Virus record (IMG/VR): IMGVR_UViG_2698536672_000013
From: a virus
Lineage: Duplodnaviria; Heunggongvirae; Uroviricota; Caudoviricetes
Direction: 5' to 3' (one strand)
DNA length: 10,212 nt
Each line of letters starts with the position of its first letter. Positions within the stretch are counted from its first letter, which is position 1. This document shows positions 1-10,212 of the stretch, in pieces. The notes beneath the pieces were generated by a model. The model saw nothing but the letters and a program-made list of their open reading frames with translations. It was not told the DNA's origin and did not search any database. Made by a program: the position numbers and the translations under genes.

Positions 1-486
1 TCATGCTGCCCTTACGATGTAATTAAACGCAATATTACGAGGACGAATGGTTACATAATTAACCCCATCACCTCGTGAAGGCCCTGCAAATGAAAAACAG
101 GAAAAGCCTGGTTGGTTAGAAACAATTTGGTCATAGTTATTGATTGAATGACCAGACCCAATGTCGAAATTACCTCCGTATTGAGAAAAACTTGTACCAT
201 CCTGTTCTGAAAGCAGGGTACGTCCCGCATCAATCCCGCGCCCATCATCCCAGCCACGAATAAACTCACCGCGTAAATCCAGCAGTTTCCCTGACGGGTA
301 TGCTTTGGCAAGGTTGGGATATTTCACTTTATCAAAGGCAGCACCATTGCATTTCAGCCAGCCGGTCGGCGGAGTAGTAGAAGGCCACGGAATCGGTACA
401 CCAACAGGCAATGCAGAGCCTTTCCCCAAACCAACGTTTTCGTCTTTATCCCTACCTATACCAACTATGTATTTTTCACGAAACAA
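1..486 (-). CDS. Phage tail fibre protein, variable C-terminal cassette; partial (continues past the left window edge) and apparently silent in this orientation
   Basis: The minus-strand frame is open from 486 to 1. The translation carries the tail-fibre junction motif shared by P2 H, Mu S, P1 S and lambda Stf (PVGVPIPWP...PTGWLKCNGAAF...YPNLAKAY...LDLRGEFIRGWDDGRGID). The frame opens with TTG, not ATG, has no Shine-Dalgarno, and begins right at the gix-like site, as expected for a cassette expressed only after fusion to a constant N-terminal part. Confidence 0.6.
   Translation of the reverse strand: MFREKYIVGIGRDKDENVGLGKGSALPVGVPIPWPSTTPPTGWLKCNGAAFDKVKYPNLAKAYPSGKLLDLRGEFIRGWDDGRGIDAGRTLLSEQDGTSFSQYGGNFDIGSGHSINNYDQIVSNQPGFSCFSFAGPSRGDGVNYVTIRPRNIAFNYIVRAA
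421..446. other. Candidate Gin/Hin-family inversion crossover site (gix/hix/cix-like, 26 bp)
   Basis: TTTCCCCAAACC-AA-CGTTTTCGTCTT: an imperfect dyad with the AAACC NN GTTT core typical of gix/hix sites as I recall them. It lies about 55 bp upstream of the invertase start and inside the tail-fibre reading frame, as in Mu G, P1 C and e14 P. The left half matches my remembered consensus well, the right half poorly. Confidence 0.45.
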
Positions 487-500
487 AGAGGATGTTTTTT

Positions 501-1100
501 ATGCAAATTGGCTATATTCGTGTGTCAACAAATGACCAGAACACGGATTTACAACGCAATGCACTGAACTGCGCAGGATGTGAACTGATTTTTGAAGATA
601 AAATCAGCGGAACGAAATCAGCCAGACCGGGATTGAAAAAACTGCTCAGAACGCTATCAGAAGGAGATACGCTGGTTGTCTGGAAGCTGGACAGACTGGG
701 CAGAAGTATGAAACACCTGATCACGCTTATTGAGGAATTGCGGGAAAAAGGTGTTAATTTCCGTAGTCTGACGGACAGCATTGACACATCAACACCCATG
801 GGGCGTTTCTTTTTTCACGTCATGGGGGCTTTAGCCGAAATGGAACGTGAATTAATTGTAGAGCGTACACTGGCCGGGCTGGCAGCAGCACGCGCACAAG
901 GACGCATTGGCGGACGTCGCCCGAAGTTGACAAAAGAACAACACGAGCAAATAGCGAGGCTGATTAAAAACGGTCATGACAGGAAACAACTGGCGATCAT
1001 TTACGACATCGGCATATCGACGATTTATCGTTATCACCCTGTAGGCGATATACAGGCTGAAGAAACAACCAGGCAGACTCAGGAAAATGAAAACCGCTAA
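501..1100 (+). CDS. Serine-recombinase DNA invertase (Gin/Hin/Pin/Cin family)
   Basis: The N-terminus MQIGYIRVSTNDQNTDLQ contains the catalytic serine motif. Further family hallmarks are LVVWKLDRLGRS, FFHVMGALAEMERELI.ERT and a C-terminal helix-turn-helix (KQLAIIYDIGISTIYRY). ATG 501 is preceded by AAGAGGA at 486-492. The ORF-track start at 411 is an in-frame upstream extension without an RBS. Confidence 0.93.
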   Translation: MQIGYIRVSTNDQNTDLQRNALNCAGCELIFEDKISGTKSARPGLKKLLRTLSEGDTLVVWKLDRLGRSMKHLITLIEELREKGVNFRSLTDSIDTSTPMGRFFFHVMGALAEMERELIVERTLAGLAAARAQGRIGGRRPKLTKEQHEQIARLIKNGHDRKQLAIIYDIGISTIYRYHPVGDIQAEETTRQTQENENR

Positions 1101-1126
1101 TCTGACCATTAGCGGTTTTGCGTTAA

Positions 1127-1621
1127 TCAAAACAGCCCTTTAACGGAGCTGGCCGCGCTGTTAAGGGATGATGTGACCTTATCTTTGAAGCCGGACAGCA
1201 TATCACTGAACGATGAGGATTGCAGGCGCTCCCGCAAATCCTCATCACAGCGTTCAAGAGTCAGTGAAAATTCTATCTTTTTCGCCTTACCGTAGCGATC
1301 AAACTCGGAGCGGGTCGTATTCGTTCCGGTCAGGACATACATGCCGTAAATCTGCCCGACACCATCAATCAGAGGCCAGGGGCGTCCTGTATATGCCTGC
1401 GTGGTCAGCAACGAAAGCGACACTTCGCCACCTGTAATTTCAGGATAAAGCACACCAGAAAGAACGATGCGATCATCGCCTGCCCCGATATACTGCCAGC
1501 TTGCTGAACGGTTAACGCGTTCATTTTTCACATGCCGCCAGCTTTTGTTTTGCTGTAACTGCTGATGCGGCAACGTGCGCAGCTCAAAAACAAACATGCC
1601 ATAGATCATCATCATGGCCAT
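1127..1621 (-). CDS. U: P2 gpU-like tail protein
   Basis: 164 aa. The N-terminus (M)MMIYGMFVFELRTLPHQQLQ...WRH resembles P2 gpU as I remember it. It sits immediately downstream of the tape-measure gene, with GAGGAG just upstream. Several Met codons (1621, 1615, 1612) could be the true start. Confidence 0.8.
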   Translation of the reverse strand: MAMMMIYGMFVFELRTLPHQQLQQNKSWRHVKNERVNRSASWQYIGAGDDRIVLSGVLYPEITGGEVSLSLLTTQAYTGRPWPLIDGVGQIYGMYVLTGTNTTRSEFDRYGKAKKIEFSLTLERCDEDLRERLQSSSFSDMLSGFKDKVTSSLNSAASSVKGLF

Positions 1622-1627
1622 GACTCC

Positions 1628-4444
1628 TCAATCTTTATCGTAAAAACTGCCACGCCCGGCACGGGCGCGCCGTTCCATCTCTGCCCTGACCATTTCACCG
1701 ACCAGTTTCGCCAGTTCGCGGGGATTCTGTGTAACAACGTTATGCAGATGAACATGAATTTCACCACCAAATCCGGAGGCAACAGGCTCCCGGTTACGGG
1801 AAGTTACAGGAACTGATGCCACTGGAGATCGTATGGCCTCCGCCACCGGGCGGGAGCTGGCCGCAACAACAGGGACCAGCGCCGGAGGCAGCGGAGCCGG
1901 GACCACGGGTGTGATATTAATTGCGGGGGCAGGCTTACTGGCCTGCGCAATCTTCCGCTCCTGCCACTCCCCACGAACAGCAAGTGCTCGGGGCAGGTTT
2001 TTAAAGACAATATCGCCGGGGCCAATGCGTTTTTTCGTCTCCTCAACCAGCTTACCTGTGTTATCAGCAATTTTGCTGAGTCTGCGTAGCGTCCCGGTAT
2101 TGCTGTCTGTGAGCGGTTTGTTGTCTTTGGGTTTATCACCTCCGGTGCCATTGCCATTTTCCACAGGCTTCGGCGGATTGATTTTCGCCAGGTCCCCTTG
2201 AAGTAAGGCAACCTTGTCCTGAAGAATGGCCGCACGCTGTGCGTCTTCGATTTTCTTTCTCGCCCTTTCCGCTTCATCCGGAAGCACACCGAGTTTTTCA
2301 AGTATCCACGCCAGCGTATCCAGTAGCATTTTTGCAGGTGTCAGAACAAGTTGTAACGCACCGCCAAGAACGTTACCGAATATCTCGCCAGCACTGGTAC
2401 ATTTATCCAGCGTTTCCTTGCTGGACTCCATCGGTGACAGCAGCGATTTAAACCAGTTAAACACCTGGCTGATCCCGCTTCCGATTGCGTCAAAAACAGG
2501 GCCAAACCGTTCAAAGGTTTCACGCAACGGGTTCAGCCTTTCCATAATCCCGCTGAACACCCCGGCAAAAAATGCCCTGATGGGATCCCAGTATTTCCAG
2601 ATAAGAACGGCAGCGCCGGCAAGCGCAGCCACGATAAGACTAACCGGACTGAACAGCGCCCCGATAGCTCCTCCCAGCAAAGAAACAGAACCCGTCACCA
2701 TTCCCCACAGCGCAGGCAACACCCTGATGACATTCATTGACCGGGTAAGAATGTCGAAACCAAGACGCAAGGTGGCCAGCTTCCCGTAAAGCACCCCAAT
2801 AACCAGCGACAACGAGCCAATCGTTGCAGTCATTGCCAGCAACGCACCGCCTGCTATCAGTAGCTGGCGCGTCAGTACCGGATGGGCCTGCGCCAGCGAG
2901 GTGATTTTTTCAAGCACCCGCGTGAGCCACTGCGTGACAGAACGCAGCGGACCGTCAACCAGATCACTGATGCGAATACGAAGACCTTCCCATGCGCTGT
3001 CGAGATTTTTCAGGTCTCCATCAAGATTATCGGCCATTACTTTTGCAACGCGATCGGCCTCTCCCCTTGCCCCCTGCAATTCTCTGGTCAGTTTTTGCAG
3101 TTCTCCTGAACCAGCCGCCGCAACAAGCGTCTGCAAACCAACGAACGCCTCTTCTCCGGCGATGTCCTTGAAGAAGGAGACCTGGTCCACCTGTCCGTAT
3201 TTTTGTGTCGCCTTATAGAGATCAAGCAGCACATCCTCCATCGGGCGCATTTTGCCTCTGGCGTCAGCAACTGACACCCCCAGCTCTTTCAGTGCATCAG
3301 CCGCAGCTTTTGGCGGTGATGCAAGGCGGGACAGACTTGCGCGCATGGCCGTACCAGCATCGCTTCCGCGAAGACCATTATTGGCAAGCATCCCGGCCAT
3401 GGCCGCCGCTTCTTCAAGACTGATACCAAGTTTTGCGGCAACCGGACCGGTATACTTCATGGTTTCGCCCAGCGCGCGTAAATCAGTATTGGTCCGGGTG
3501 AATGCTGCTGTCAGCGTATCGCCAACCCGGTCCATTTGATCGGCTGTCAGGTTGAACTGTGTGAGGATATTGGAGCCTATATCAGCCGTCTCGCCGAGTT
3601 CGACGCCACCTGCCAGCGCCATATTAAGAACACCGGGCAATGCGGCCTGAATGGCCTGCGGAGTAAAACCAGCCATTGCCAGAAAGCTCTGCCCACTGGC
3701 GGCATCACTCGCAGTAAACTGTGTTTCAGAACCAAGTTTTAACGCCTGCTCACGCAGCGCCTTAAACTGCGGGCTGTTTTTGTCGATTCGCGTCAGTGCC
3801 TGAACGCGGGACATCTCTTTGCCGAACCCGATCGCAGGCTGCAAAAAACGCCCGGCAGCATAGCCGCCAGCCGCTGCCGCACCAATTGCCAGCGCACCAC
3901 CTGTTTTCAGTTTTCCCGCGGTTTCCTGCGCGCGCGAATACCGCTCACGCGCCCGCGTTACACGCGCAAGCGCCTGCCGTTCGCGTTCAAGCTGGTTGTT
4001 GTACTGTTCGGTGCGTCTGATGGCCTGCTGGATGGTGTTATCGCTGCCTGTCAGGGAAATGCCGTGGCGTTTCAGCTCTCCGCCAAGTTCCCGCATTTTC
4101 TGAATTTCCCGTGTGCGCGATTCATTCAGGCGTTCAAGCCGGGTGCTTAACTGCTGCATCAGCTTTTGTTGTTTTTCGCTGAGCACTGTACCCGTGCGTT
4201 GTAACTGATTAAGGGCGTTAAGCTGGCGTCGTGCTTTCACGATGCCCGCATCCGCTTTACTGACAGCGTCACGGGCGCGCTCAAATGAACGCGCCTGACG
4301 CTCGAGATTTTTGATCGCCCCCTGCGTTCGCTGGATGGAGTCACCAAACTGCCCCATCAGGCGGCGGGCGTTTTCGGCAGGCCGGGTCAGCCTGTCAACG
4401 GCGCTGAAAGCGACCCGGATATCAAGAGTCTTCATTGTCTGCAT
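1628..4444 (-). CDS. T: Phage tail tape-measure protein (P2 gpT-like)
   Basis: 938 aa. The N-terminal half is Ala/Arg/Gln/Leu-rich and looks coiled-coil; the middle has long hydrophobic Gly/Ala-rich stretches (LLIAGGALLAMTATIGSLSLVIGVL...). Its position after E/E' and before U matches the conserved order. Confidence 0.88.
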   Translation of the reverse strand: MQTMKTLDIRVAFSAVDRLTRPAENARRLMGQFGDSIQRTQGAIKNLERQARSFERARDAVSKADAGIVKARRQLNALNQLQRTGTVLSEKQQKLMQQLSTRLERLNESRTREIQKMRELGGELKRHGISLTGSDNTIQQAIRRTEQYNNQLERERQALARVTRARERYSRAQETAGKLKTGGALAIGAAAAGGYAAGRFLQPAIGFGKEMSRVQALTRIDKNSPQFKALREQALKLGSETQFTASDAASGQSFLAMAGFTPQAIQAALPGVLNMALAGGVELGETADIGSNILTQFNLTADQMDRVGDTLTAAFTRTNTDLRALGETMKYTGPVAAKLGISLEEAAAMAGMLANNGLRGSDAGTAMRASLSRLASPPKAAADALKELGVSVADARGKMRPMEDVLLDLYKATQKYGQVDQVSFFKDIAGEEAFVGLQTLVAAAGSGELQKLTRELQGARGEADRVAKVMADNLDGDLKNLDSAWEGLRIRISDLVDGPLRSVTQWLTRVLEKITSLAQAHPVLTRQLLIAGGALLAMTATIGSLSLVIGVLYGKLATLRLGFDILTRSMNVIRVLPALWGMVTGSVSLLGGAIGALFSPVSLIVAALAGAAVLIWKYWDPIRAFFAGVFSGIMERLNPLRETFERFGPVFDAIGSGISQVFNWFKSLLSPMESSKETLDKCTSAGEIFGNVLGGALQLVLTPAKMLLDTLAWILEKLGVLPDEAERARKKIEDAQRAAILQDKVALLQGDLAKINPPKPVENGNGTGGDKPKDNKPLTDSNTGTLRRLSKIADNTGKLVEETKKRIGPGDIVFKNLPRALAVRGEWQERKIAQASKPAPAINITPVVPAPLPPALVPVVAASSRPVAEAIRSPVASVPVTSRNREPVASGFGGEIHVHLHNVVTQNPRELAKLVGEMVRAEMERRARAGRGSFYDKD

Positions 4445-4960
4445 TCCCGCTGCGAAGTGCCGCCCGCTCGCGCCAGCTAACCACTTCGCCGGGCGTCATC
4501 ATGAAGATTTCGGCGGGCGACCAGTTAAAAATGGCGGCAATATCCGCCACCAGATCTTCGATGTGCTCAAAGCACACCAGGGTGATTACGCTGCCGTCTC
4601 CTGCACGCTCTTCGCGCCAGAGTCTGGCTCGCTCATAAAATTTACAGCCACAGCGCACAACTGAATAAAATCGCGTGACGACATTTTTTTAATCATCACT
4701 TCATCCAGTCGTGGCGAGGTCACGCGAGGCAACAGCGTGAACATGGTATCCGCTTTCAGATTCAGCACATCAGACAGAGACAGACCACGCAGGGATCCAG
4801 CCTGTTCAATAGCCCCGGTGATCTCCACATATGTGATTTTTTCGGCACCACGCTCAATTGGCCGGGAAAGTTTTACACCACGTTCGACAGCCATATCCTC
4901 ACCTGACGTCACATCATCCGCTACGGTGTTATTCCGGGTTTCAGTATCGATATCTTTCAT
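4422..4960 (-). CDS. E+E' tail assembly chaperone made by programmed -1 ribosomal frameshift (E N-terminus joined to the E' frame)
   Basis: The E frame contains ATT AAA AAA ATG (A7 run at 4684-4690, minus-strand sense). The -1 frame is open from 4688 to a stop at 4422-4424 and overlaps the T start. This matches the conserved frameshift in the chaperone pair upstream of the tape-measure gene (lambda G/GT, P2 E/E'). Confidence 0.5.
4586..4960 (-). CDS. E: Tail assembly chaperone (P2 gpE-like)
   Basis: 124 aa, acidic, located between the tube and tape-measure genes. AAGGAG lies 7 nt upstream of ATG 4960. Confidence 0.8.
   Translation of the reverse strand: MKDIDTETRNNTVADDVTSGEDMAVERGVKLSRPIERGAEKITYVEITGAIEQAGSLRGLSLSDVLNLKADTMFTLLPRVTSPRLDEVMIKKMSSRDFIQLCAVAVNFMSEPDSGAKSVQETAA
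4684..4690 (-). other. Candidate slippery site (A7) for the E/E' -1 frameshift
   Basis: Seven consecutive A on the coding (minus) strand, at the point where the -1 frame becomes open, directly after a TAA in that frame. Confidence 0.45.
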
Positions 4961-5015
4961 CAGTTGTCTCCTTTTCAGTCAGAGGCGACGCACTGCGCCG
5001 CCTGCATATTACTTA

Positions 5016-5528
5016 TCAGCCAAGCCCAAGCGCGGAACGAATGCGGTCAGGCACAATGTCCTTGCCGTCCTTCCGGTAGATGTGGTTCAACAGGTCGATT
5101 TCCCACAGCGGGCGATCGTTAACGCTCAGCTTGTAGTAGGTGTTTTTGACAGCGTAAGTGTGTGATGTGGCTTCGCCCTGTTTGGCCTCCCCCATATCAA
5201 TTTCCGTCACACGCCCGCGCATCTCGATTTCATACAGATCGCTTTCTGCATCGGTGTAGTATTCACCCGCAAAACGCAGCAGCGTGCCGTCAATCGTGCC
5301 GCCATATTTAAGGAACAGCGCACGAACAGCTCCCCCCATGACAAAACTCGCATCAAGCGCGGAGTCGTCCAGACCGAGATCAATACTTACCGCCCCCATC
5401 ATGCCACCACCACGATAGCTGTCGGTTTTGCGCGTCAGTTTGGGTGGCGTGACGGACGTCACCTTACCCACTTCGTTTTCACCATCCACAAACAGCGTAA
5501 AAAAGCGAAGATGTTTTGGTACAGCCAT
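5016..5528 (-). CDS. FII: Contractile tail tube protein (P2 FII-like)
   Basis: 170 aa. MAVPKHLRFF...SVTPPKLTRKTDSYRGGGMMG...LRFAGEY...EIEMRGRVTEIDMGEAKQGE resembles P2 FII. The start overlaps the FI stop (TGATG). Confidence 0.9.
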   Translation of the reverse strand: MAVPKHLRFFTLFVDGENEVGKVTSVTPPKLTRKTDSYRGGGMMGAVSIDLGLDDSALDASFVMGGAVRALFLKYGGTIDGTLLRFAGEYYTDAESDLYEIEMRGRVTEIDMGEAKQGEATSHTYAVKNTYYKLSVNDRPLWEIDLLNHIYRKDGKDIVPDRIRSALGLG

Positions 5529-6712
5529 CAGGCACCTCCCAGCACCGCAAATGCGGGACCAAAGAATTCATCAGTAAACGACTGGTAAAGCTCCATGTCT
5601 TCCAGCGGCGGAACGGGCGTATATTTGTAGCGAATACGCACACGCCCCTGACGTAAATTCATGGTGCTGTTATCCACGATGTCATACCAGCACTCCGCGC
5701 CAATCAGTTTCCCGGCAGTAACCAGTGAATCCAGTTTTGCCCTGATGGCACTGATAACATCCTTCACGTTCGCAGGCGTCAGTGGACTGTCGATGGTTTC
5801 AAACTGCGCTTCCGCAATTGAATCAGCCAGCACCTGTGCGGTTCGGGTATACACCTCAAAGATGTAGGCGTTCGTTTCCGGTGTGCGGTTGCCCCAGAAG
5901 CGGAGCCCGTTGCGACGAATAATGGTCGTGATTTCTTTGTTGTTGAGGCTGTTGGCATCGCTGTCTTCGGCCTGCAACGACCAGAACACATGCCTGGACA
6001 TCCCCAGCACATTTTTAACCGGAACGTTGGACAGTGATTTGTGCCATCCCTGCTCATGGTCAATGTACGCACGAAGGCCGCACGCATAGGCAGGCGCGGG
6101 GAACGTTTCGTTTTTGCCACTTTTCGGGTTGTAGGCGATGAAGTCAGGCCATAAGAGCATCACCTCACGTTCGTTGAATTTCTGGCGGTAGGTAATCGCC
6201 TCAGCCATCGTGTTACAACCATGACATGCGGCATACACAAACGCGCGCAGTTTACCCGCAATCACGCACAGGGATTTTGTCACCGCCTCCGTGTCCAGCT
6301 CCGGCGCGGCCAGAATACGCGGACGGTATCCGATGCTTTCATCCTGCTCTGCAACAAGCAGCGCATACATCCCCGTATAGCTGCCGTCAGATTCAGAACC
6401 ACCGATAACCAGTTGATCCTGCGTCTTTCCGTTTTCTTCTTTGTGTTCAGCCACGCGAACGACGATCACCTTTGTGCTCACCTGGTCTGCGATGGCCTTA
6501 AGCGCACGATAAAGCGTCCCCGTTGTCCCGCATTTTCCCAGCACGTCATTGACGCGGGTCAGCAGTGTGGGCTTGTTCAGCGGGAACAGCTTCGCGTCCG
6601 CATCATCCGCCGTTGCCACGATACCGATAACGCTGGAATCAACATCGTTAATCGCTGTTACCAGGTCGGTACTTTCCGTAACACGGGCACCATGAAAACG
6701 AGTTTCACTCAT
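5528..6712 (-). CDS. FI: Contractile tail sheath protein (P2 FI-like)
   Basis: 394 aa. The N-terminus (...ATADDADAKLFPLNKPTLLTRVNDV...GTLYRALKAIADQ) and the length match P2 FI as I remember it. AAGGGG lies 8 nt upstream of ATG 6712. Confidence 0.92.
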   Translation of the reverse strand: MSETRFHGARVTESTDLVTAINDVDSSVIGIVATADDADAKLFPLNKPTLLTRVNDVLGKCGTTGTLYRALKAIADQVSTKVIVVRVAEHKEENGKTQDQLVIGGSESDGSYTGMYALLVAEQDESIGYRPRILAAPELDTEAVTKSLCVIAGKLRAFVYAACHGCNTMAEAITYRQKFNEREVMLLWPDFIAYNPKSGKNETFPAPAYACGLRAYIDHEQGWHKSLSNVPVKNVLGMSRHVFWSLQAEDSDANSLNNKEITTIIRRNGLRFWGNRTPETNAYIFEVYTRTAQVLADSIAEAQFETIDSPLTPANVKDVISAIRAKLDSLVTAGKLIGAECWYDIVDNSTMNLRQGRVRIRYKYTPVPPLEDMELYQSFTDEFFGPAFAVLGGA

Positions 6713-6869
6713 AGCTTCAGCCCCTTGTATCCGTTAAATGATTCGGCAACAATCATCACCCACCACGCGCGTAATCTCACCCCTGCGCCGTTCTCCCGCC
6801 ACGGCGACAACAAAAAGCAGTAACCCCCTCCGCACGCACATGCGACCATGCCGCACAGGGAGGGAGCAG

Positions 6870-7979
6870 ATGACCGACACCACCATGCAATTGCTCAGTC
6901 AGGGCACAGACCCCGTAAAAATGCCGGATTTTGATATTCTCGCGGAGGGTAAAACGCTGTCAGGCGTGGCAGAGCGCCTGATGAGCCTGTCACTGACCGA
7001 CAACCGGGGATTTGACGCGGACCAGCTCACCATCACGCTGGATGATGCGGATGGTCAGTTGCAGCTACCGCCACGGGGCGCGCGCCTGACGGTTCTCATT
7101 GGCTGGAAAGGAGAACCGCTGACAGAAAAAGGCACTTACATTGTTGATGAAATCGCTCACGAAGGACCGCCGGACAGGCTGACTGTTTCAGCCAGAAGCG
7201 CAGATTTTCGGGATGAATTTAACGTTAAACGTGAGGTGTCCTGGCATGATGTGACCGTTGAGCGTGTGGTATCCGCCATCGCTCATCGGTACGGTCTGAA
7301 ACCGCAAATCAGCGAAATGCTGATGGATATCGAAATCGACCACGCCGACCAGACCGAAGAAAGCGACATGTCCTTTCTTACGCGCATGGCGGAAATGCTG
7401 GGCGCAATCACCACGGTAAAAAGCGGTAATCTGTTATTCATTATGCCAGGCGGTGGCGTGAACGCACAGGGCCAGCCGTTGCCCTCGTTCGCCATCACGC
7501 GCGGCAGTGGCGATCGCCATCAGTTCCGCATTGCTGACCGCGAAGCGTATACGGGGGTACGCGCTTACTGGCTTGATCTTAATTACGGGAAAAAGAAAAA
7601 AGTCAGCGTGAAACGCCGTAAACCGCCAAAACCCAAAAAGGAGAAAAGCAGCAGCCGTGAAGGTGATTATATGGAAGGCGCGGAAGGCAATGTGTTTGTG
7701 TTACGCAAGACTTATCAGAACGAGCAGGCAGCAAGACGCGCAGCGGCGGCAAAGTGGCAGCAGCTACAACGCGGAGCCGCATCATTCTCCATCACGCTGG
7801 CATGTGGTCGTGCAGAACTCTACCCCGAAATGCATGGCACGGTAACAGGATTTAAAAGCGAGATTGATAATCAGGACTGGATTATTGCAAAAGCCGAGCA
7901 CACCATCGATAACAGCGGCTTTACCACGCAGCTTGAGCTTGAGGCAAAAATCCCGGAATGGATAGCAGAAACAGAGTGA
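6870..7979 (+). CDS. D: P2 gpD-like tail protein (late gene D)
   Basis: LSLTDNRGFDADQL, SARSADFR, SWHD, FLTRMAE, a Lys/Pro-rich linker (KKKKVSVKRRKPPKPKKEK) and the C-terminal block FSITLACGRAELYPE...GFTTQLELE match the gpD pattern. GGGAGGGAG precedes ATG 6870. The ORF-track start at 6738 is an unlikely upstream extension; ATG 6885 is an alternative start. Confidence 0.85.
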   Translation: MTDTTMQLLSQGTDPVKMPDFDILAEGKTLSGVAERLMSLSLTDNRGFDADQLTITLDDADGQLQLPPRGARLTVLIGWKGEPLTEKGTYIVDEIAHEGPPDRLTVSARSADFRDEFNVKREVSWHDVTVERVVSAIAHRYGLKPQISEMLMDIEIDHADQTEESDMSFLTRMAEMLGAITTVKSGNLLFIMPGGGVNAQGQPLPSFAITRGSGDRHQFRIADREAYTGVRAYWLDLNYGKKKKVSVKRRKPPKPKKEKSSSREGDYMEGAEGNVFVLRKTYQNEQAARRAAAAKWQQLQRGAASFSITLACGRAELYPEMHGTVTGFKSEIDNQDWIIAKAEHTIDNSGFTTQLELEAKIPEWIAETE

Positions 7980-8021
7980 GCAACTTAGAATAGCAGCAGC
8001 ACCACGTTAAGGGAGGTCGCT

Positions 8022-8282
8022 ATGTTCCGTTGTCCGCTTTGTGGCGCATCTGCCCGTATCCGCACCAGTCGTCCGGAAAATGATTCAAACACCGTGCGGC
8101 AAAAGTATTACCAGTGTAACAACCTGGAATGCGGCGTATGCTTCTCAACACTGGAAGCTTTCCATAAATTCACATCAAAACACACCTCCGGCGTTCACTC
8201 TTCAGAAGGTATCCCGTGGCATGAGCTGCCAGCTTCACACAGGGGAAACAATCAGATGAGTTTGCCTTTACCTCAGAATTAA
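8022..8282 (+). CDS. ogr: Ogr/Delta-family zinc-finger late transcription activator
   Basis: MFRCPLCGASARIRTSR...YYQCNNLECG gives the C-x2-C...C-x4-C pattern and N-terminal similarity to P2 Ogr (MFHCPLC...). AAGGGAGG precedes ATG 8022. At 86 aa it is longer than P2 Ogr (72 aa). Confidence 0.88.
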   Translation: MFRCPLCGASARIRTSRPENDSNTVRQKYYQCNNLECGVCFSTLEAFHKFTSKHTSGVHSSEGIPWHELPASHRGNNQMSLPLPQN

Positions 8283-8473
8283 CAGGCAGAATTGCCGGAG
8301 TAACAAAAAAGCGATAGATTACGCGCGGGTGCCTTTCGGCTGATGGTCGGAGGGAATACCCGAAGGCCAGATGTGGAAAGGCCCCGGAAAACATTTCTGT
8401 TTAACCGAGGCCCTAACATATCTACCTTAAGCAAGTGATAGGTTAGCGCCTCTCCAACAAAGGAGCAAGCGCT

Positions 8474-8614
8474 ATGTCGCAAAAATCGCTTACGGCCATC
8501 ACGTTCTGCGTGACGGTAATCCTCATCATCTGGATGCTACACGGTTCGCTGTGTGAAATACGGATGAGCTTCTGGGGAGCGGAGTTTGCGGCGTTCTTAC
8601 AGTGTAAGCAGTAA
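8474..8614 (+). CDS. Hok/Gef-family type I toxin (small membrane peptide), 46 aa
   Basis: Translation MSQKSLTAITFCVTVILIIWMLHGSLCEIRMSFWGAEFAAFLQCKQ: an N-terminal hydrophobic helix followed by the SLCE(I/L) and AAFL.C motifs seen in HokA-like peptides. AAGGAG lies 9 nt upstream of the ATG. It is absent from the ORF track only because it is shorter than 60 aa. Confidence 0.65.
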   Translation: MSQKSLTAITFCVTVILIIWMLHGSLCEIRMSFWGAEFAAFLQCKQ

Positions 8615-8708
8615 GGAAACCGCGACGGGGAAGGCAACTTCCCCGTCAATCGGTTGCCAGGGTAAAGGTCGAAAAGGCACCCTATTTCCAGTTGACGTGA
8701 ACAACAAG

Positions 8709-8740
8709 CCCGCAGCGTAAAAACTGCGGGTTTTCTTTTT
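8709..8740 (+). terminator. Rho-independent terminator, probable 3' end of the hok-like transcript
   Basis: A 7 bp GC-rich stem (CCCGCAG / CTGCGGG) with an 8 nt loop, followed by TTTTCTTTTT. Confidence 0.55.
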
Positions 8741-8764
8741 GGTTCCCTCACTCATGAGGACACC

Positions 8765-8804
8765 AAAAAACAAAGCCCACAGCATAGAAGCTGTGGGCTT
8801 TTTG
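8765..8804. terminator. Bidirectional hairpin terminator
   Basis: A perfect 11 bp stem (AAGCCCACAGC / GCTGTGGGCTT) with a 6 nt loop, flanked by an A-run upstream and a T-run downstream. Confidence 0.5.
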
Positions 8805-8877
8805 CATTCAAAGATGGACGTTATATGGACACTTAAAAATAAAATCCATTTATTTTCAAATGATTAAACCTCTACTT

Positions 8878-8898
8878 AAAGCGCCCGCAGGCGCTTTT
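8878..8898. terminator. Hairpin terminator between serS and the upstream region (likely the serS terminator; T-run is stronger on the plus strand)
   Basis: Stem GCGCC / GGCGC with a 4 nt loop, flanked by AAA and TTTTT, about 20 bp beyond the serS stop codon. Confidence 0.5.
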
Positions 8899-8919
8899 TA
8901 GATTCAGAAAAATTGGGTA

Positions 8920-10212
<1,293 letters not shown>

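What the first reader, a model, noticed from the sequence alone, without database searches (positions are those of the whole stretch)
8327..8682. Long-range 5'/3' complementarity flanking the hok-like ORF (fold-back inhibition architecture)
GGGTGCCTTT at 8327-8336 is perfectly complementary to AAAGGCACCC at 8673-8682, about 350 nt apart, bracketing the hok-like ORF and ending just before the terminator at 8709-8740. Hok mRNAs are about 400 nt and are kept inactive by pairing of a 3' fold-back element with the 5' end. A 10-mer complement at this spacing is only mildly unlikely by chance (rough expectation of order 0.1), but it fits the known architecture well.
Basis: seen in the sequence. Interest (0 to 1): 0.5.

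Follow-up and report, generated by a model that had tools for sequence, protein, structure and literature searches.

The report
Hok toxin mRNA end-pairing lock
The two complementary segments are real. They are the 5'/3' end-pairing ("tac/fbi" fold-back) that keeps a Hok-family toxin mRNA inert, here in a P2-like prophage of E. coli: a correct reading of a textbook mechanism, not a new one.

Summary
Observation confirmed. GGGTGCCTTT (8327-8336) is perfectly complementary to AAAGGCACCC (8673-8682), and the pairing extends to 15 bp (8327-8341 with 8667-8682, one bulge, two G·U).

A bare 10-mer inverted repeat at this spacing is not rare: 5 occur in the window against 2.9 in shuffles. But the 5' arm starts exactly where the hok-leader covariance model (Rfam RF01794) and a conserved promoter place the mRNA +1. 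Anchored there, chance is 5 in 20000.

The enclosed ORF (8474-8614) is a Pfam Hok/Gef toxin. The full-length fold closes through this helix (pair probability about 1; 12 kcal/mol). Without the 3' arm, the 5' end refolds into a local hairpin or a tac/ucb-like stem.

Arms are nearly invariant within the subfamily, so there is conservation but no covariation there. Across hok subfamilies (R1 hok, pndA, srnB, hokW, a Vibrio copy) the arm sequences differ but stay complementary, at the same distance from the stop codon.

Interpretation supported. Differences from R1: no mok reading frame, and a second covarying long-range helix.

This is an ordinary new member of a known kind. Transcript ends are unmapped.

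The parts
8292..8320 (+). Predicted hok promoter: -35 TTGCCG (8292-8297), 17-nt spacer, -10 TAGATT (8315-8320). It places +1 at about 8327.
   Evidence: Read from the sequence. Both hexamers and the spacing are conserved in relatives whose upstream flanks are otherwise unrelated (alignment). The consensus scan did not call it, because it scores 8 of 12 and the tool requires 9. Inferred, not mapped.
8327..8341 (+). [quoted passage not shown]
   Evidence: Rfam RF01794 model position 1 aligns to 8327. The arm pairs with 8667-8682 in the MFE with probability 0.99-1.0. It is nearly invariant in the subfamily.
8345..8361 (+). Local partner of the 5' arm. It forms a hairpin with 8327-8341 when the 3' arm is absent (metastable-hairpin analogue).
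   Evidence: MFE of the 3'-truncated RNAs, and of the full-length RNA with the 3' arm blocked.
8376..8385 (+). ucb-like box GAAAGGCCCC, the alternative partner of the 5' arm (tac stem). In the full-length fold it pairs instead with 8405-8412, which contains GAGG, the remnant of the mok Shine-Dalgarno.
   Evidence: I11. The tac/ucb form lies within 0-1.7 kcal/mol of the MFE of truncated RNAs. It is 95% paired across 14 loci, against 23-67% when slid. It is also the consensus structure of RF01794.
8372..8432 (-). Predicted Sok-like antisense RNA, about 60 nt: a 5' tail of about 8 nt plus a long stem-loop. Ends are approximate.
   Evidence: Position transferred from the annotated sokC of K-12 through the RF01794 alignment. 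It folds at -27 kcal/mol, z -4.65. The minus-strand promoter-like boxes are conserved. Not detected by the promoter scan. Inferred.
8440..8468 (-). Predicted Sok-like promoter on the minus strand: -35 TTGCTC (8468 to 8463), 17-nt spacer, -10 TAACCT (8445 to 8440).
   Evidence: TAACCT is invariant in 8 of 9 aligned loci. The -35 reads TTGCTC, TTGCCT or TTGACT. The layout is the same as I recall for R1 Sok. Inferred.
8425..8441 (+). Leader strand of a second long-range helix. It pairs with 8650-8666 in the full-length fold and overlaps the target of the Sok-like 5' tail.
   Evidence: helix 6: 14 pairs, 5 with changes on both sides, 82% of cells paired.
8444..8474 (+). Local hairpin that sequesters hok's own Shine-Dalgarno (AAGGAG, 8461-8466) and reaches the first bases of the start codon.
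   Evidence: helix 7: 94.8% paired. A Shine-Dalgarno lies 7-9 nt before the ATG in 13 of 14 loci.
8474..8614 (+). hok-family toxin ORF, 46 aa: MSQKSLTAITFCVTVILIIWMLHGSLCEIRMSFWGAEFAAFLQCKQ.
   Evidence: Pfam PF01848 HOK_GEF, 30.1 bits against a cutoff of 22. RefSeq WP_000078920.1, 'Hok/Gef family protein'.
8623..8648 (+). GC-rich stem-loop just after the stop codon. It is the likely road-block for 3' exonucleolytic trimming and the 3' end of the truncated mRNA.
   Evidence: I7. helix 14: 10 pairs, 4 with changes on both sides, 90.7% paired. The role is assigned by analogy with R1 (PMC1635323, Fig. 1 legend; PMC9841398).
8650..8666 (+). 3'-UTR strand of the second long-range helix, the partner of 8425-8441.
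   Evidence: helix 6.
8667..8682 (+). 3' arm: the fbi-like fold-back element.
   Evidence: It ends 71 nt after the first base of the stop codon. The equivalent arms end at +65 to +78 in the other subfamilies: +66 to +68 in R1 hok, the Atlantibacter copy, pndA and srnB, and +78 in Vibrio; +65 in hokW. Homology to the Stx-phage and IncF copies stops at 8682-8688.
8706..8745 (+). Intrinsic terminator: stem-loop 8706-8733 plus a T run. It sets the predicted 3' end of the primary transcript, about 415 nt.
   Evidence: It is shared by several relatives.

Best explanation
The two segments are the tac-like 5' end and the fbi-like 3' element of a hok-family type I toxin mRNA. The locus sits at the ogr end of a P2-like prophage, next to serS, in E. 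coli strain 4/0.

Shown in silico: the primary transcript (about 8327 to 8741) closes on itself. Nucleotides 8327-8341 pair with 8667-8682, and an adjacent helix joins 8425-8441 to 8650-8666.

Inferred by homology with R1 hok:
- This closed form is stable and translationally silent. It also hides the leader region that the Sok-like antisense RNA must contact.
- Slow 3'-exonucleolytic trimming back to the stem-loop 8623-8648 removes both 3' strands.
- The freed 5' end then refolds, through a local hairpin (8327-8341 with 8345-8361) or the tac/ucb stem (8327-8337 with 8376-8385). This releases 8405-8441.
- The truncated RNA is then either bound by the antisense RNA and destroyed, or, once that unstable RNA has decayed, translated into Hok.

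Unlike R1, there is no mok reading frame. Hok must be translated from its own Shine-Dalgarno, which sits in a conserved hairpin. How refolding opens that site is not resolved here.
For: Identity of the locus:
- The ORF is a Pfam HOK_GEF member above cutoff. RefSeq annotates it as a Hok/Gef family protein in the source genome.
- RF01794 aligns end to end, model 1-157 on 8327-8484, E 1.4e-9. This model is sense to hok mRNAs and ends at the hok AUG.

The pairing itself:
- The full-length MFE is -178.8 kcal/mol, z -6.7, with the ends paired. Pair probabilities are 0.99-1.0. Blocking the 3' arm costs 12 kcal/mol.
- Truncated RNAs switch the 5' end to the local hairpin or the tac/ucb stem, which lie within 0-1.7 kcal/mol of each other.

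Conservation in the subfamily:
- 14 loci from different prophages, plasmids and species keep the pairing: 85-90% of cells paired, against 36-54% in slid registers.
- One-sided changes give G·U pairs, which would be A·C mismatches on the other strand. That points to plus-strand RNA.
- S. diarizonae carries CGAU/AUCG where the window has CGGC/GUCG.

Family-wide covariation:
- With the 5' end set by the Rfam model, or by matching the conserved 5'-end motif (L029, L031), the arm pairs are: R1 GGCGCTT/AAGCGCC, pndA GGGCGC/GCGCCC, Vibrio GGGAGCTT/AAGCTCCC, srnB GGGTGTCTG/CAGACACCC, hokW GGGTGC+TTGAGG/CCTCAA+GCACCC.
- All 3' arms begin 52-71 nt after the first base of the stop codon, 60-62 nt in five of the seven.
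- MFE folds of the six end-pairing relatives folded (hokW was not folded) all pair nt 1-7 with that segment.
- 3 of 7 pairs change on both sides; 0 of 500 shuffles reach the observed covariation score.

Geometry parallels R1:
- R1 hok RNAs are 441, 398 and 361 nt, and 39 nt are trimmed back to a road-block stem-loop (PMC1635323).
- In the R1-type copy the fbi ends at +396.
- Here the terminator is at about +415, the fbi ends at +356, and the stem-loop foot is at about +322.

The mechanism is described in PMC9841398 and PMC2891591, which cite Thisted 1995, Franch 1997 and Gultyaev 1997.
Against: - No transcript mapping exists for this locus. +1, the 3' end and the processing are all inferred.
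- Within the subfamily both arms are almost invariant, so there is no covariation signal there (scores do not exceed shuffles).
- One relative, L002 in a Mu-like prophage, carries GGACACC at the 5' end with no compensation and loses the end pairing in its MFE.
- In the cross-family count, the 3' arms were located by complementarity and position, so that test is partly circular.
- A bare 10-mer inverted repeat at this spacing is common.
- The hok Shine-Dalgarno hairpin is predicted to persist in all forms. There is no mok. The step from end pairing to translational control is therefore not demonstrated even in silico.
- RF01794 scores below its gathering threshold, 47.9 against 59 bits.
Confidence: 0.85

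Rival explanations
1. The end pairing is real, but here it serves mainly to stabilise the mRNA and to hide the antisense target. It does not act as the R1-type translational switch. The mok reading frame through which R1 couples refolding to translation has been lost, and the hok ribosome-binding site is closed by its own hairpin in every predicted form.
For: - No overlapping or in-frame upstream ORF is conserved in 14 loci, while the same scan finds mok in R1.
- The position of the mokC AUG reads AUC at 8420-8422.
- The Shine-Dalgarno hairpin 8444-8474 is unchanged in the full-length, truncated and tac-stem folds and is 94.8% paired across loci.
- The second long-range helix covers the predicted Sok-tail target (helix 6).
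Against: - The whole tac/ucb/fbi set and the pairing of GAGG with the ucb-like box are retained exactly as in R1. That would be surprising if the switch had no role in expression.
- Thermodynamic folds cannot show ribosome access.
- The ORF is intact in all 14 aligned subfamily loci examined here (the decayed L013 copy was not included), and homologous DNA occurs in 1757 of 5426 E. coli genomes.
Confidence: 0.1
2. Chance complementarity: a 10-mer inverted repeat that happens to flank the ORF.
For: Five perfect inverted repeats of 10 nt or more with a 200-500 nt gap occur in this 10.2-kb window, and shuffles give 2.85 +/- 1.7.
Against: - Anchored at the independently predicted +1, only 5 of 20000 shuffles match.
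- The pairing extends to 15 bp and dominates the ensemble.
- It is conserved in relatives and covaries across subfamilies at a fixed distance from the stop codon.
Confidence: 0.02
3. A DNA-level feature: terminal inverted repeats or a recombination site that bounds a mobile hok cassette, or part of the prophage attachment region.
For: - The homology block shared with Stx phages and IncF plasmids ends at 8682-8688, right at the 3' arm.
- The locus is found in many unrelated contexts: prophages of P2, lambda and Mu type, IncI and IncF plasmids, and next to ykgM.
Against: - The left boundary of the shared block is the -35 box at about 8290, not the 5' arm.
- Several pairs are G·U and work only as plus-strand RNA.
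- The same 5' arm has two further conserved RNA partners.
- In R1 the 398-nt RNA also ends 2 nt after the fbi (PMC1635323), which explains the right boundary functionally.
Confidence: 0.03

Closest known systems
hok/sok (parB) of plasmid R1: the tac/fbi end pairing of hok mRNA
   Same: - A Hok/Gef toxin ORF.
- The 5'-terminal nucleotides pair with a 3'-UTR segment that ends about 65-71 nt after the stop codon.
- The same 5' end has a local metastable partner and a ucb partner.
- A GC-rich road-block stem-loop lies between the stop codon and the fbi.
- A cis-antisense gene lies in the leader.
- A terminator lies beyond the fbi.
(PMC9841398; PMC1635323.)
   Different: - The protein is only 28% identical and is 46 aa rather than 52 aa.
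- The arm sequences differ: GGGUGCC/GGCACCC here, GGCGCUU/AAGCGCC in R1.
- There is no mok reading frame.
- Hok has its own strong Shine-Dalgarno in a hairpin.
- An additional covarying leader/3'-UTR helix is present.
- The setting is a prophage, not a plasmid.
The same hok subfamily elsewhere: P2-like phages P88 and Chuche, Xuanwuvirus, the lom-adjacent copy of Stx phages (VT2-Sakai/Sp5, 933W relatives), IncI1 and IncF plasmids, and the ykgM-adjacent chromosomal copy
   Same: DNA identity is 73-95% over promoter, leader, ORF and 3' arm. The same end pairing is present. These are simply other copies of this element.
   Different: - The central part of the end pairing is an internal loop in most copies. 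The window has a contiguous 10 bp.
- Sequence downstream of the 3' arm differs. In Stx phages, an annotated ORF starts inside the arm.
- I found no experimental work on this subfamily.
hokW/mokW/sokW of phage 933W and Sakai prophage 5 (PMC8621323), and hokC(gef)/sokC of E. coli K-12
   Same: - A prophage-borne or chromosomal hok-family type I toxin-antitoxin.
- The 5' end is GGGUGCUUGAGG, and in hokW the 3' partner is CCUCAA-C-GCACCC, ending 65 nt after the stop codon.
- The antisense RNA is annotated at the equivalent leader position.
   Different: - It is a different locus and a different protein type (MKQQKAM..., 51 aa), and it has mok.
- The 'MokW-like' label that RefSeq phage records give to this window's relatives is loose.
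Other type I toxin mRNAs locked by a 5'/3' long-distance interaction and activated by 3' processing, such as aapA1/IsoA1 of Helicobacter pylori (PMC5416894). The tisB/istR-1 standby-site control is cited from my own knowledge.
   Same: They work alike: an inert full-length mRNA is closed by end pairing, and trimming yields the translatable, antisense-sensitive form. In tisB the antisense RNA acts far upstream of a structured ribosome-binding site, as the predicted Sok-like RNA would have to do here.
   Different: The sequences and toxins are unrelated. They are not family members.

Membership tests
[quoted passage not shown] | A small hydrophobic Hok/Gef toxin ORF | tested here: met
   PF01848, 30.1 bits against a cutoff of 22, residues 7-44. 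RefSeq names it 'Hok/Gef family protein'.
[quoted passage not shown] | A leader homologous in sequence and structure to hok mRNA leaders (Rfam RF01794, which models the sense strand from +1 to the hok AUG) | tested here: inconclusive
   The full-length match covers model 1-157 on 8327-8484, E 1.4e-9. The score is 47.9 bits, below the gathering score of 59. The whole subfamily scores 38-51 bits. An intact R1-type copy scores 88.9 bits, and an IS150-disrupted copy scores 31.9.
[quoted passage not shown] | Pairing of the mRNA 5' end (tac) with a 3'-UTR element (fbi) in the full-length RNA | tested here: met
   In silico only. The MFE and ensemble show it. It is conserved in the subfamily. It covaries across subfamilies at a fixed position.
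[quoted passage not shown] | Alternative partners for the 5' end: a metastable 5' hairpin and a tac/ucb stem | tested here: met
   Both form when the 3' arm is absent, within 0-1.7 kcal/mol of each other. The tac/ucb stem is 95% paired in 14 loci.
[quoted passage not shown] | A stable stem-loop between the stop codon and the fbi that halts 3' trimming | tested here: met
   8623-8648: 10 bp, with 4 pairs changed on both sides across loci (helix 14). The road-block role itself is inferred from R1 (PMC1635323).
[quoted passage not shown] | A cis-encoded Sok antisense RNA with its own promoter inside the leader | tested here: inconclusive
   A candidate lies at 8432 to 8372, with conserved -35 and -10-like boxes and an R1-like fold. 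Its position agrees with the annotated sokC through the model alignment. The consensus promoter scan found nothing, and there is no expression data.
[quoted passage not shown] | A mok reading frame overlapping hok, through which Sok controls hok translation | tested here: not met
   The window has no upstream ORF that overlaps or extends hok. None is conserved in 14 subfamily loci. The same scan recovers mok in R1, and mokC and mokW are annotated in K-12 and 933W.
[quoted passage not shown] | 3' processing to a truncated, translatable, Sok-sensitive mRNA; toxicity of the peptide | not testable with these tools
   This needs Northern blots or RACE after rifampicin, plus expression assays.
hokW-sokW of 933W/Sp5 (the name RefSeq phage records attach to relatives of this locus) | The same locus or protein as the experimentally studied HokW | tested here: not met
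   HokW starts MKQQKAM (primer YO-357). It lies at a different place in 933W, together with mokW and sokW. The relative of this window in Sp5 is the lom-adjacent 46-aa ORF.

The most novel reading that the evidence does not exclude
This widespread prophage and plasmid hok subfamily may be a mok-less variant of hok/sok. It keeps the whole tac/ucb/fbi refolding switch, including a vestigial mok Shine-Dalgarno still paired to the ucb-like box. But it translates Hok directly from a hairpin-enclosed Shine-Dalgarno. The Sok-like RNA, which binds 30-100 nt upstream of that site, would then have to repress by blocking a standby or unfolding region, or by RNase III cleavage, rather than by blocking mok. 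A second covarying leader/3'-UTR helix would gate antisense access.
Probability: 0.3. Interest if true: 0.45.

Novelty: new member of a known kind. Interest (0 to 1): 0.2.

Why it matters
The result confirms that a tool-less reader can recognise the hok fold-back architecture from raw sequence. It also supplies coordinates for every element of the switch in a subfamily that Rfam's threshold misses, that RefSeq phage records mislabel as MokW-like, and whose homologous DNA occurs in about a third of complete E. coli genomes.

The biology is textbook. The only modest point of interest is the apparent loss of mok while the RNA switch is retained. That could show how much of hok control is carried by RNA folding alone.

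Tried and rejected
Searches and comparisons that led nowhere:
- The search for related loci with a broad Hok alignment failed because no block was conserved enough. With the subfamily alignment it returned only 6 close loci, three with implausible host labels.
- tblastn with the 46-aa protein did not reach the classical hok genes. I fetched those with Hok R1 and PndA peptides written from memory; both were confirmed as 100% matches.
- The first R1-type copy (L021) proved to be disrupted by IS150 and gave a false 5' end. I replaced it with L029.
- K-12 hokC has IS186 20 nt after its stop codon, so its fbi cannot be assessed.
- A matrix of RNAduplex energies between 22-nt 5' ends and all 3' UTRs did not separate cognate from non-cognate pairs. 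I replaced it with anchored perfect-complement searches.
- The IncHI2 copy (L028) gave no clear 3' partner.
- MAFFT mis-registered R1 in the mini-alignment, so R1 was left out of the formal count.

Candidate substitutes for mok, considered and rejected as not conserved:
- ATG 8343, 31 codons, ending before hok.
- AUC 8420, 8 codons, ending at UAG 8444.
- GTG 8434, 3 codons.

The consensus promoter scan found no sigma-70 site in 8200-8900. The promoters given here rest on conservation and on analogy.

Full report
**Observation.** The sequence shows GGGTGCCTTT at 8327-8336 and AAAGGCACCC at 8673-8682, a perfect 10/10 inverted repeat with 336 nt between the arms. The arms bracket ORF 8474-8614. 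A terminator-like hairpin (8706-8733 plus a T run) follows.

In the minimum-free-energy fold of 8327-8745, positions 8327-8341 pair with 8667-8682. That is 15 bp with one bulged A and two G·U pairs.

**Is it more than chance?** Taken alone, no. The 10.2-kb window holds five perfect inverted repeats of 10 nt or more with a 200-500 nt gap. Dinucleotide shuffles give 2.85 +/- 1.7.

Conditioning on position changes the picture. Only 2.4% of shuffles place any 10-mer complement across the ORF. Only 5 of 20000 place a complement of 10 nt or more to the exact mRNA 5' end within 150 nt after the stop codon.

The 5' end was fixed independently of the repeat. Rfam RF01794 aligns over its whole length to 8327-8484, with model position 1 at 8327 (E 1.4e-9). 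Conserved -35 and -10 boxes (TTGCCG, 17 nt, TAGATT) end 6 nt upstream of it. Relatives keep these boxes although their upstream flanks are unrelated.

**What the locus is.** The ORF is a Pfam Hok/Gef toxin (30.1 bits, cutoff 22). The window is 100% identical to E. coli strain 4/0. There the gene is annotated as Hok/Gef and lies after ogr, at the end of a P2-like prophage inserted next to serS.

Homologous DNA occurs in 1757 of 5426 complete E. coli genomes. It is also found in:
- P2-like phages (P88, Chuche);
- Stx phages, next to lom;
- other prophage contexts (a lambdoid tail region and a com/mom, Mu-like region);
- IncI1 and IncF plasmids;
- next to ykgM;
- Salmonella and E. albertii.

RF01794, although named 'sok', matches the sense strand of hok mRNAs from +1 to the hok AUG. 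In K-12 it lies on the hokC strand, and the annotated sokC is on the opposite strand. This subfamily scores 38-51 bits, below the gathering score of 59. That is why the default Rfam scan of the window was empty.

**Folding.** The full-length RNA folds at -178.8 kcal/mol (z -6.7) with its ends paired. Pair probabilities in the terminal helix are 0.99-1.0. Forbidding the 3' arm from pairing costs 12 kcal/mol.

When the 3' arm is removed or blocked, the 5' end has two near-isoenergetic alternatives, 0-1.7 kcal/mol apart:
- a local hairpin with 8345-8361;
- a long hairpin closed by 8327-8337 pairing with 8376-8385 (GAAAGGCCCC).

The second alternative is the consensus structure of RF01794. These are the counterparts of the metastable hairpin and the tac/ucb stem of R1 hok mRNA, as summarised in PMC9841398 and PMC2891591. 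In the closed form, the ucb-like box pairs with 8405-8412. That segment contains GAGG at the place of the R1 mok Shine-Dalgarno.

**Conservation and covariation.** In an alignment of 14 subfamily loci, the terminal helix is paired in 85-90% of cells, against 36-54% for slid registers. Both arms are almost invariant, so covariation measures do not exceed shuffles.

The informative changes in the subfamily are one-sided G·U substitutions, which work only in plus-strand RNA. There is also a compensated inner helix in S. enterica subsp. diarizonae (CGAU/AUCG) and in an IncI1 plasmid copy.

One copy is an exception. L002, in a Mu-like prophage, has GGACACC at the 5' end without compensation, and its fold loses the end pairing.

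The whole full-length structure does carry covariation: 24 pairs change on both sides, against 15 +/- 2.2 in shuffles, and 0 of 500 shuffles reach the observed score. The signal is concentrated in three places:
- coding-region helices;
- the stem-loop 8623-8648 (4 pairs);
- a second long-range helix, 8425-8441 with 8650-8666 (5 pairs).

The tac/ucb stem is 95% paired.

**Across subfamilies.** I fetched classical and distant hok loci: R1-type hok, an Atlantibacter hok, pndA, srnB, a Vibrio owensii copy and hokW of 933W. Their 5' ends were set with RF01794 or, for L029 and L031, by matching the conserved 5'-end motif.

| Locus | 5' terminal nucleotides | 3'-UTR complement |
|---|---|---|
| R1-type hok | GGCGCTT | AAGCGCC |
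| Atlantibacter hok | GGCGCTTG | CAAGCGCC |
| pndA | GGGCGC | GCGCCC |
| Vibrio owensii | GGGAGCTT | AAGCTCCC |
| srnB | GGGTGTCTG | CAGACACCC |
| hokW (933W) | GGGTGC + TTGAGG | CCTCAA + GCACCC |
| window | GGGTGCCTTT | AAAGGCACCC |

In each case the 3'-UTR partner begins 52-71 nt after the first base of the stop codon, 60-62 nt in five of the seven. Independent MFE folds of six of these full-length RNAs pair nucleotides 1-7 with that segment.

A formal count on the seven terminal pairs of nine distinct arm pairs gives 90.5% paired, 3 pairs changed on both sides, and 0 of 500 shuffles reaching the covariation score. The caveat is that the 3' arms were located by complementarity and position.

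This re-derives what the literature already reports for the hok family: Gultyaev, Franch and Gerdes 1997, cited in PMC2891591 and PMC9841398.

**Geometry.** For R1, PMC1635323 gives hok RNAs of 441, 398 and 361 nt, with 39 nt trimmed back to a road-block stem-loop. In the R1-type copy the fbi ends at +396, 2 nt before the 398-nt end.

In the window the corresponding points are:
- terminator at about +415;
- fbi end at +356;
- stem-loop foot at about +322.

The homology shared with Stx-phage and IncF copies stops at 8682-8688, which is at the fbi end.

**Antisense gene.** Transferring the annotated sokC through the model alignment places a Sok-like RNA at about 8428 to 8371 on the minus strand. 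Conserved boxes on that strand (TTGCTC, TTGCCT or TTGACT; 17 nt; TAACCT) predict a start near 8432.

The 65-nt candidate folds into a 5' tail of about 8 nt plus a long stem-loop (-27 kcal/mol, z -4.65). This resembles the 64-nt R1 Sok described in PMC1635323. It remains a prediction, because the consensus scan called no promoter.

**Differences from R1.** There is no mok. The window has no ORF that starts upstream and overlaps or extends hok. None is conserved among the 14 loci. The same scan recovers mok in R1, and mokC and mokW are annotated in K-12 and 933W. Where hokC has the mokC AUG, the window reads AUC.

Hok instead has a strong Shine-Dalgarno of its own (AAGGAG, 8461-8466), inside a conserved hairpin that persists in all predicted forms. 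The link from end pairing to translation is therefore inferred by homology. It is not visible in the folds.

**Naming.** RefSeq phage records label relatives of this locus 'MokW-like host killing'. The experimentally studied hokW-sokW (PMC8621323) is a different locus, with a different protein (MKQQKAM..., 51 aa) and a mok frame. The relative of this window in Sp5 is the lom-adjacent 46-aa ORF. I found no paper containing this peptide sequence.

**Verdict.** This is the tac/fbi end pairing of a hok-family mRNA, a known mechanism, in an uncharacterised but very common prophage and plasmid subfamily. Novelty: new member of a known kind. Interest is low.

The most novel reading still open is that this is a mok-less variant in which the RNA switch is retained and the antisense RNA acts at a distance from the ribosome-binding site.

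Noticed in passing
window 8327-8484; L020 602-754: Rfam RF01794, named 'sok antitoxin', matches the sense strand of hok mRNAs from +1 to the hok AUG. In K-12 the annotated sokC lies on the opposite strand. This window's subfamily scores 38-51 bits, below the gathering score of 59, so default Rfam annotation misses it.
   Followed up: yes
window 8405-8473: No mok-like reading frame overlaps or extends hok, here or consistently in 13 relatives. The position of the mokC AUG reads AUC (8420-8422). GAGG (8407-8410) survives and still pairs with the ucb-like box.
   Followed up: partly
window 8425-8441 with 8650-8666: A second long-range leader/3'-UTR helix lies next to the terminal one. It has 5 pairs changed on both sides across 14 loci, and it covers the predicted target of the antisense RNA's 5' tail.
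   Followed up: partly
L002 325-331 (E. coli UR21/11-869, next to com/mom): This copy has GGACACC instead of GGGTGCC at the mRNA 5' end, with no compensating change in either partner. Its predicted fold loses the end pairing although the Hok ORF is intact.
   Followed up: partly
L030 1867-2268 (VT2-Sakai); L005, L007, L008: In Stx phages, a 133-aa hypothetical ORF (orf66) is annotated to start at the ATG inside the 3' arm (ATGGCACCC). No terminator is evident after the arm.
   Followed up: no
L031 (phage 933W) versus L030 (VT2-Sakai): Stx phages carry two different hok loci. The studied hokW/mokW/sokW is one. The lom-adjacent 46-aa hok, related to this window, is the other. The RefSeq label 'MokW-like host killing' on the second is misleading.
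   Followed up: yes
L009 (STEC1012, record CP061270) 1-129 and 463-603: Two Hok/Gef genes lie in tandem next to serS, at the same chromosomal site as in the window.
   Followed up: no
L014, L015, L018: Genome records titled Planococcaceae UBA3378, Vagococcus sp. WN89Y and Xanthomonas pisi carry an E. coli-type hok that is 74-100% identical. These are probably contaminating contigs. L014's leader is masked with N.
   Followed up: no
window 8022-8282 and 1-8000: An Ogr/Delta zinc-finger gene lies directly upstream of hok. The rest of the window is the P2-like tail module (sheath, tube, tape measure, gpE, tail fibre parts), with a recombinase-family gene at about 501-1100. serS occupies 8920-10212 on the minus strand.
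   Followed up: partly
window 8772-8801 and 8878-8897: Two further hairpins lie between hok and serS. The first is a good minus-strand terminator (12-bp stem plus a T run). It is imperfectly complementary to the hok terminator region (39 nt, 74%). It may be the serS terminator or lie near the prophage boundary.
   Followed up: no
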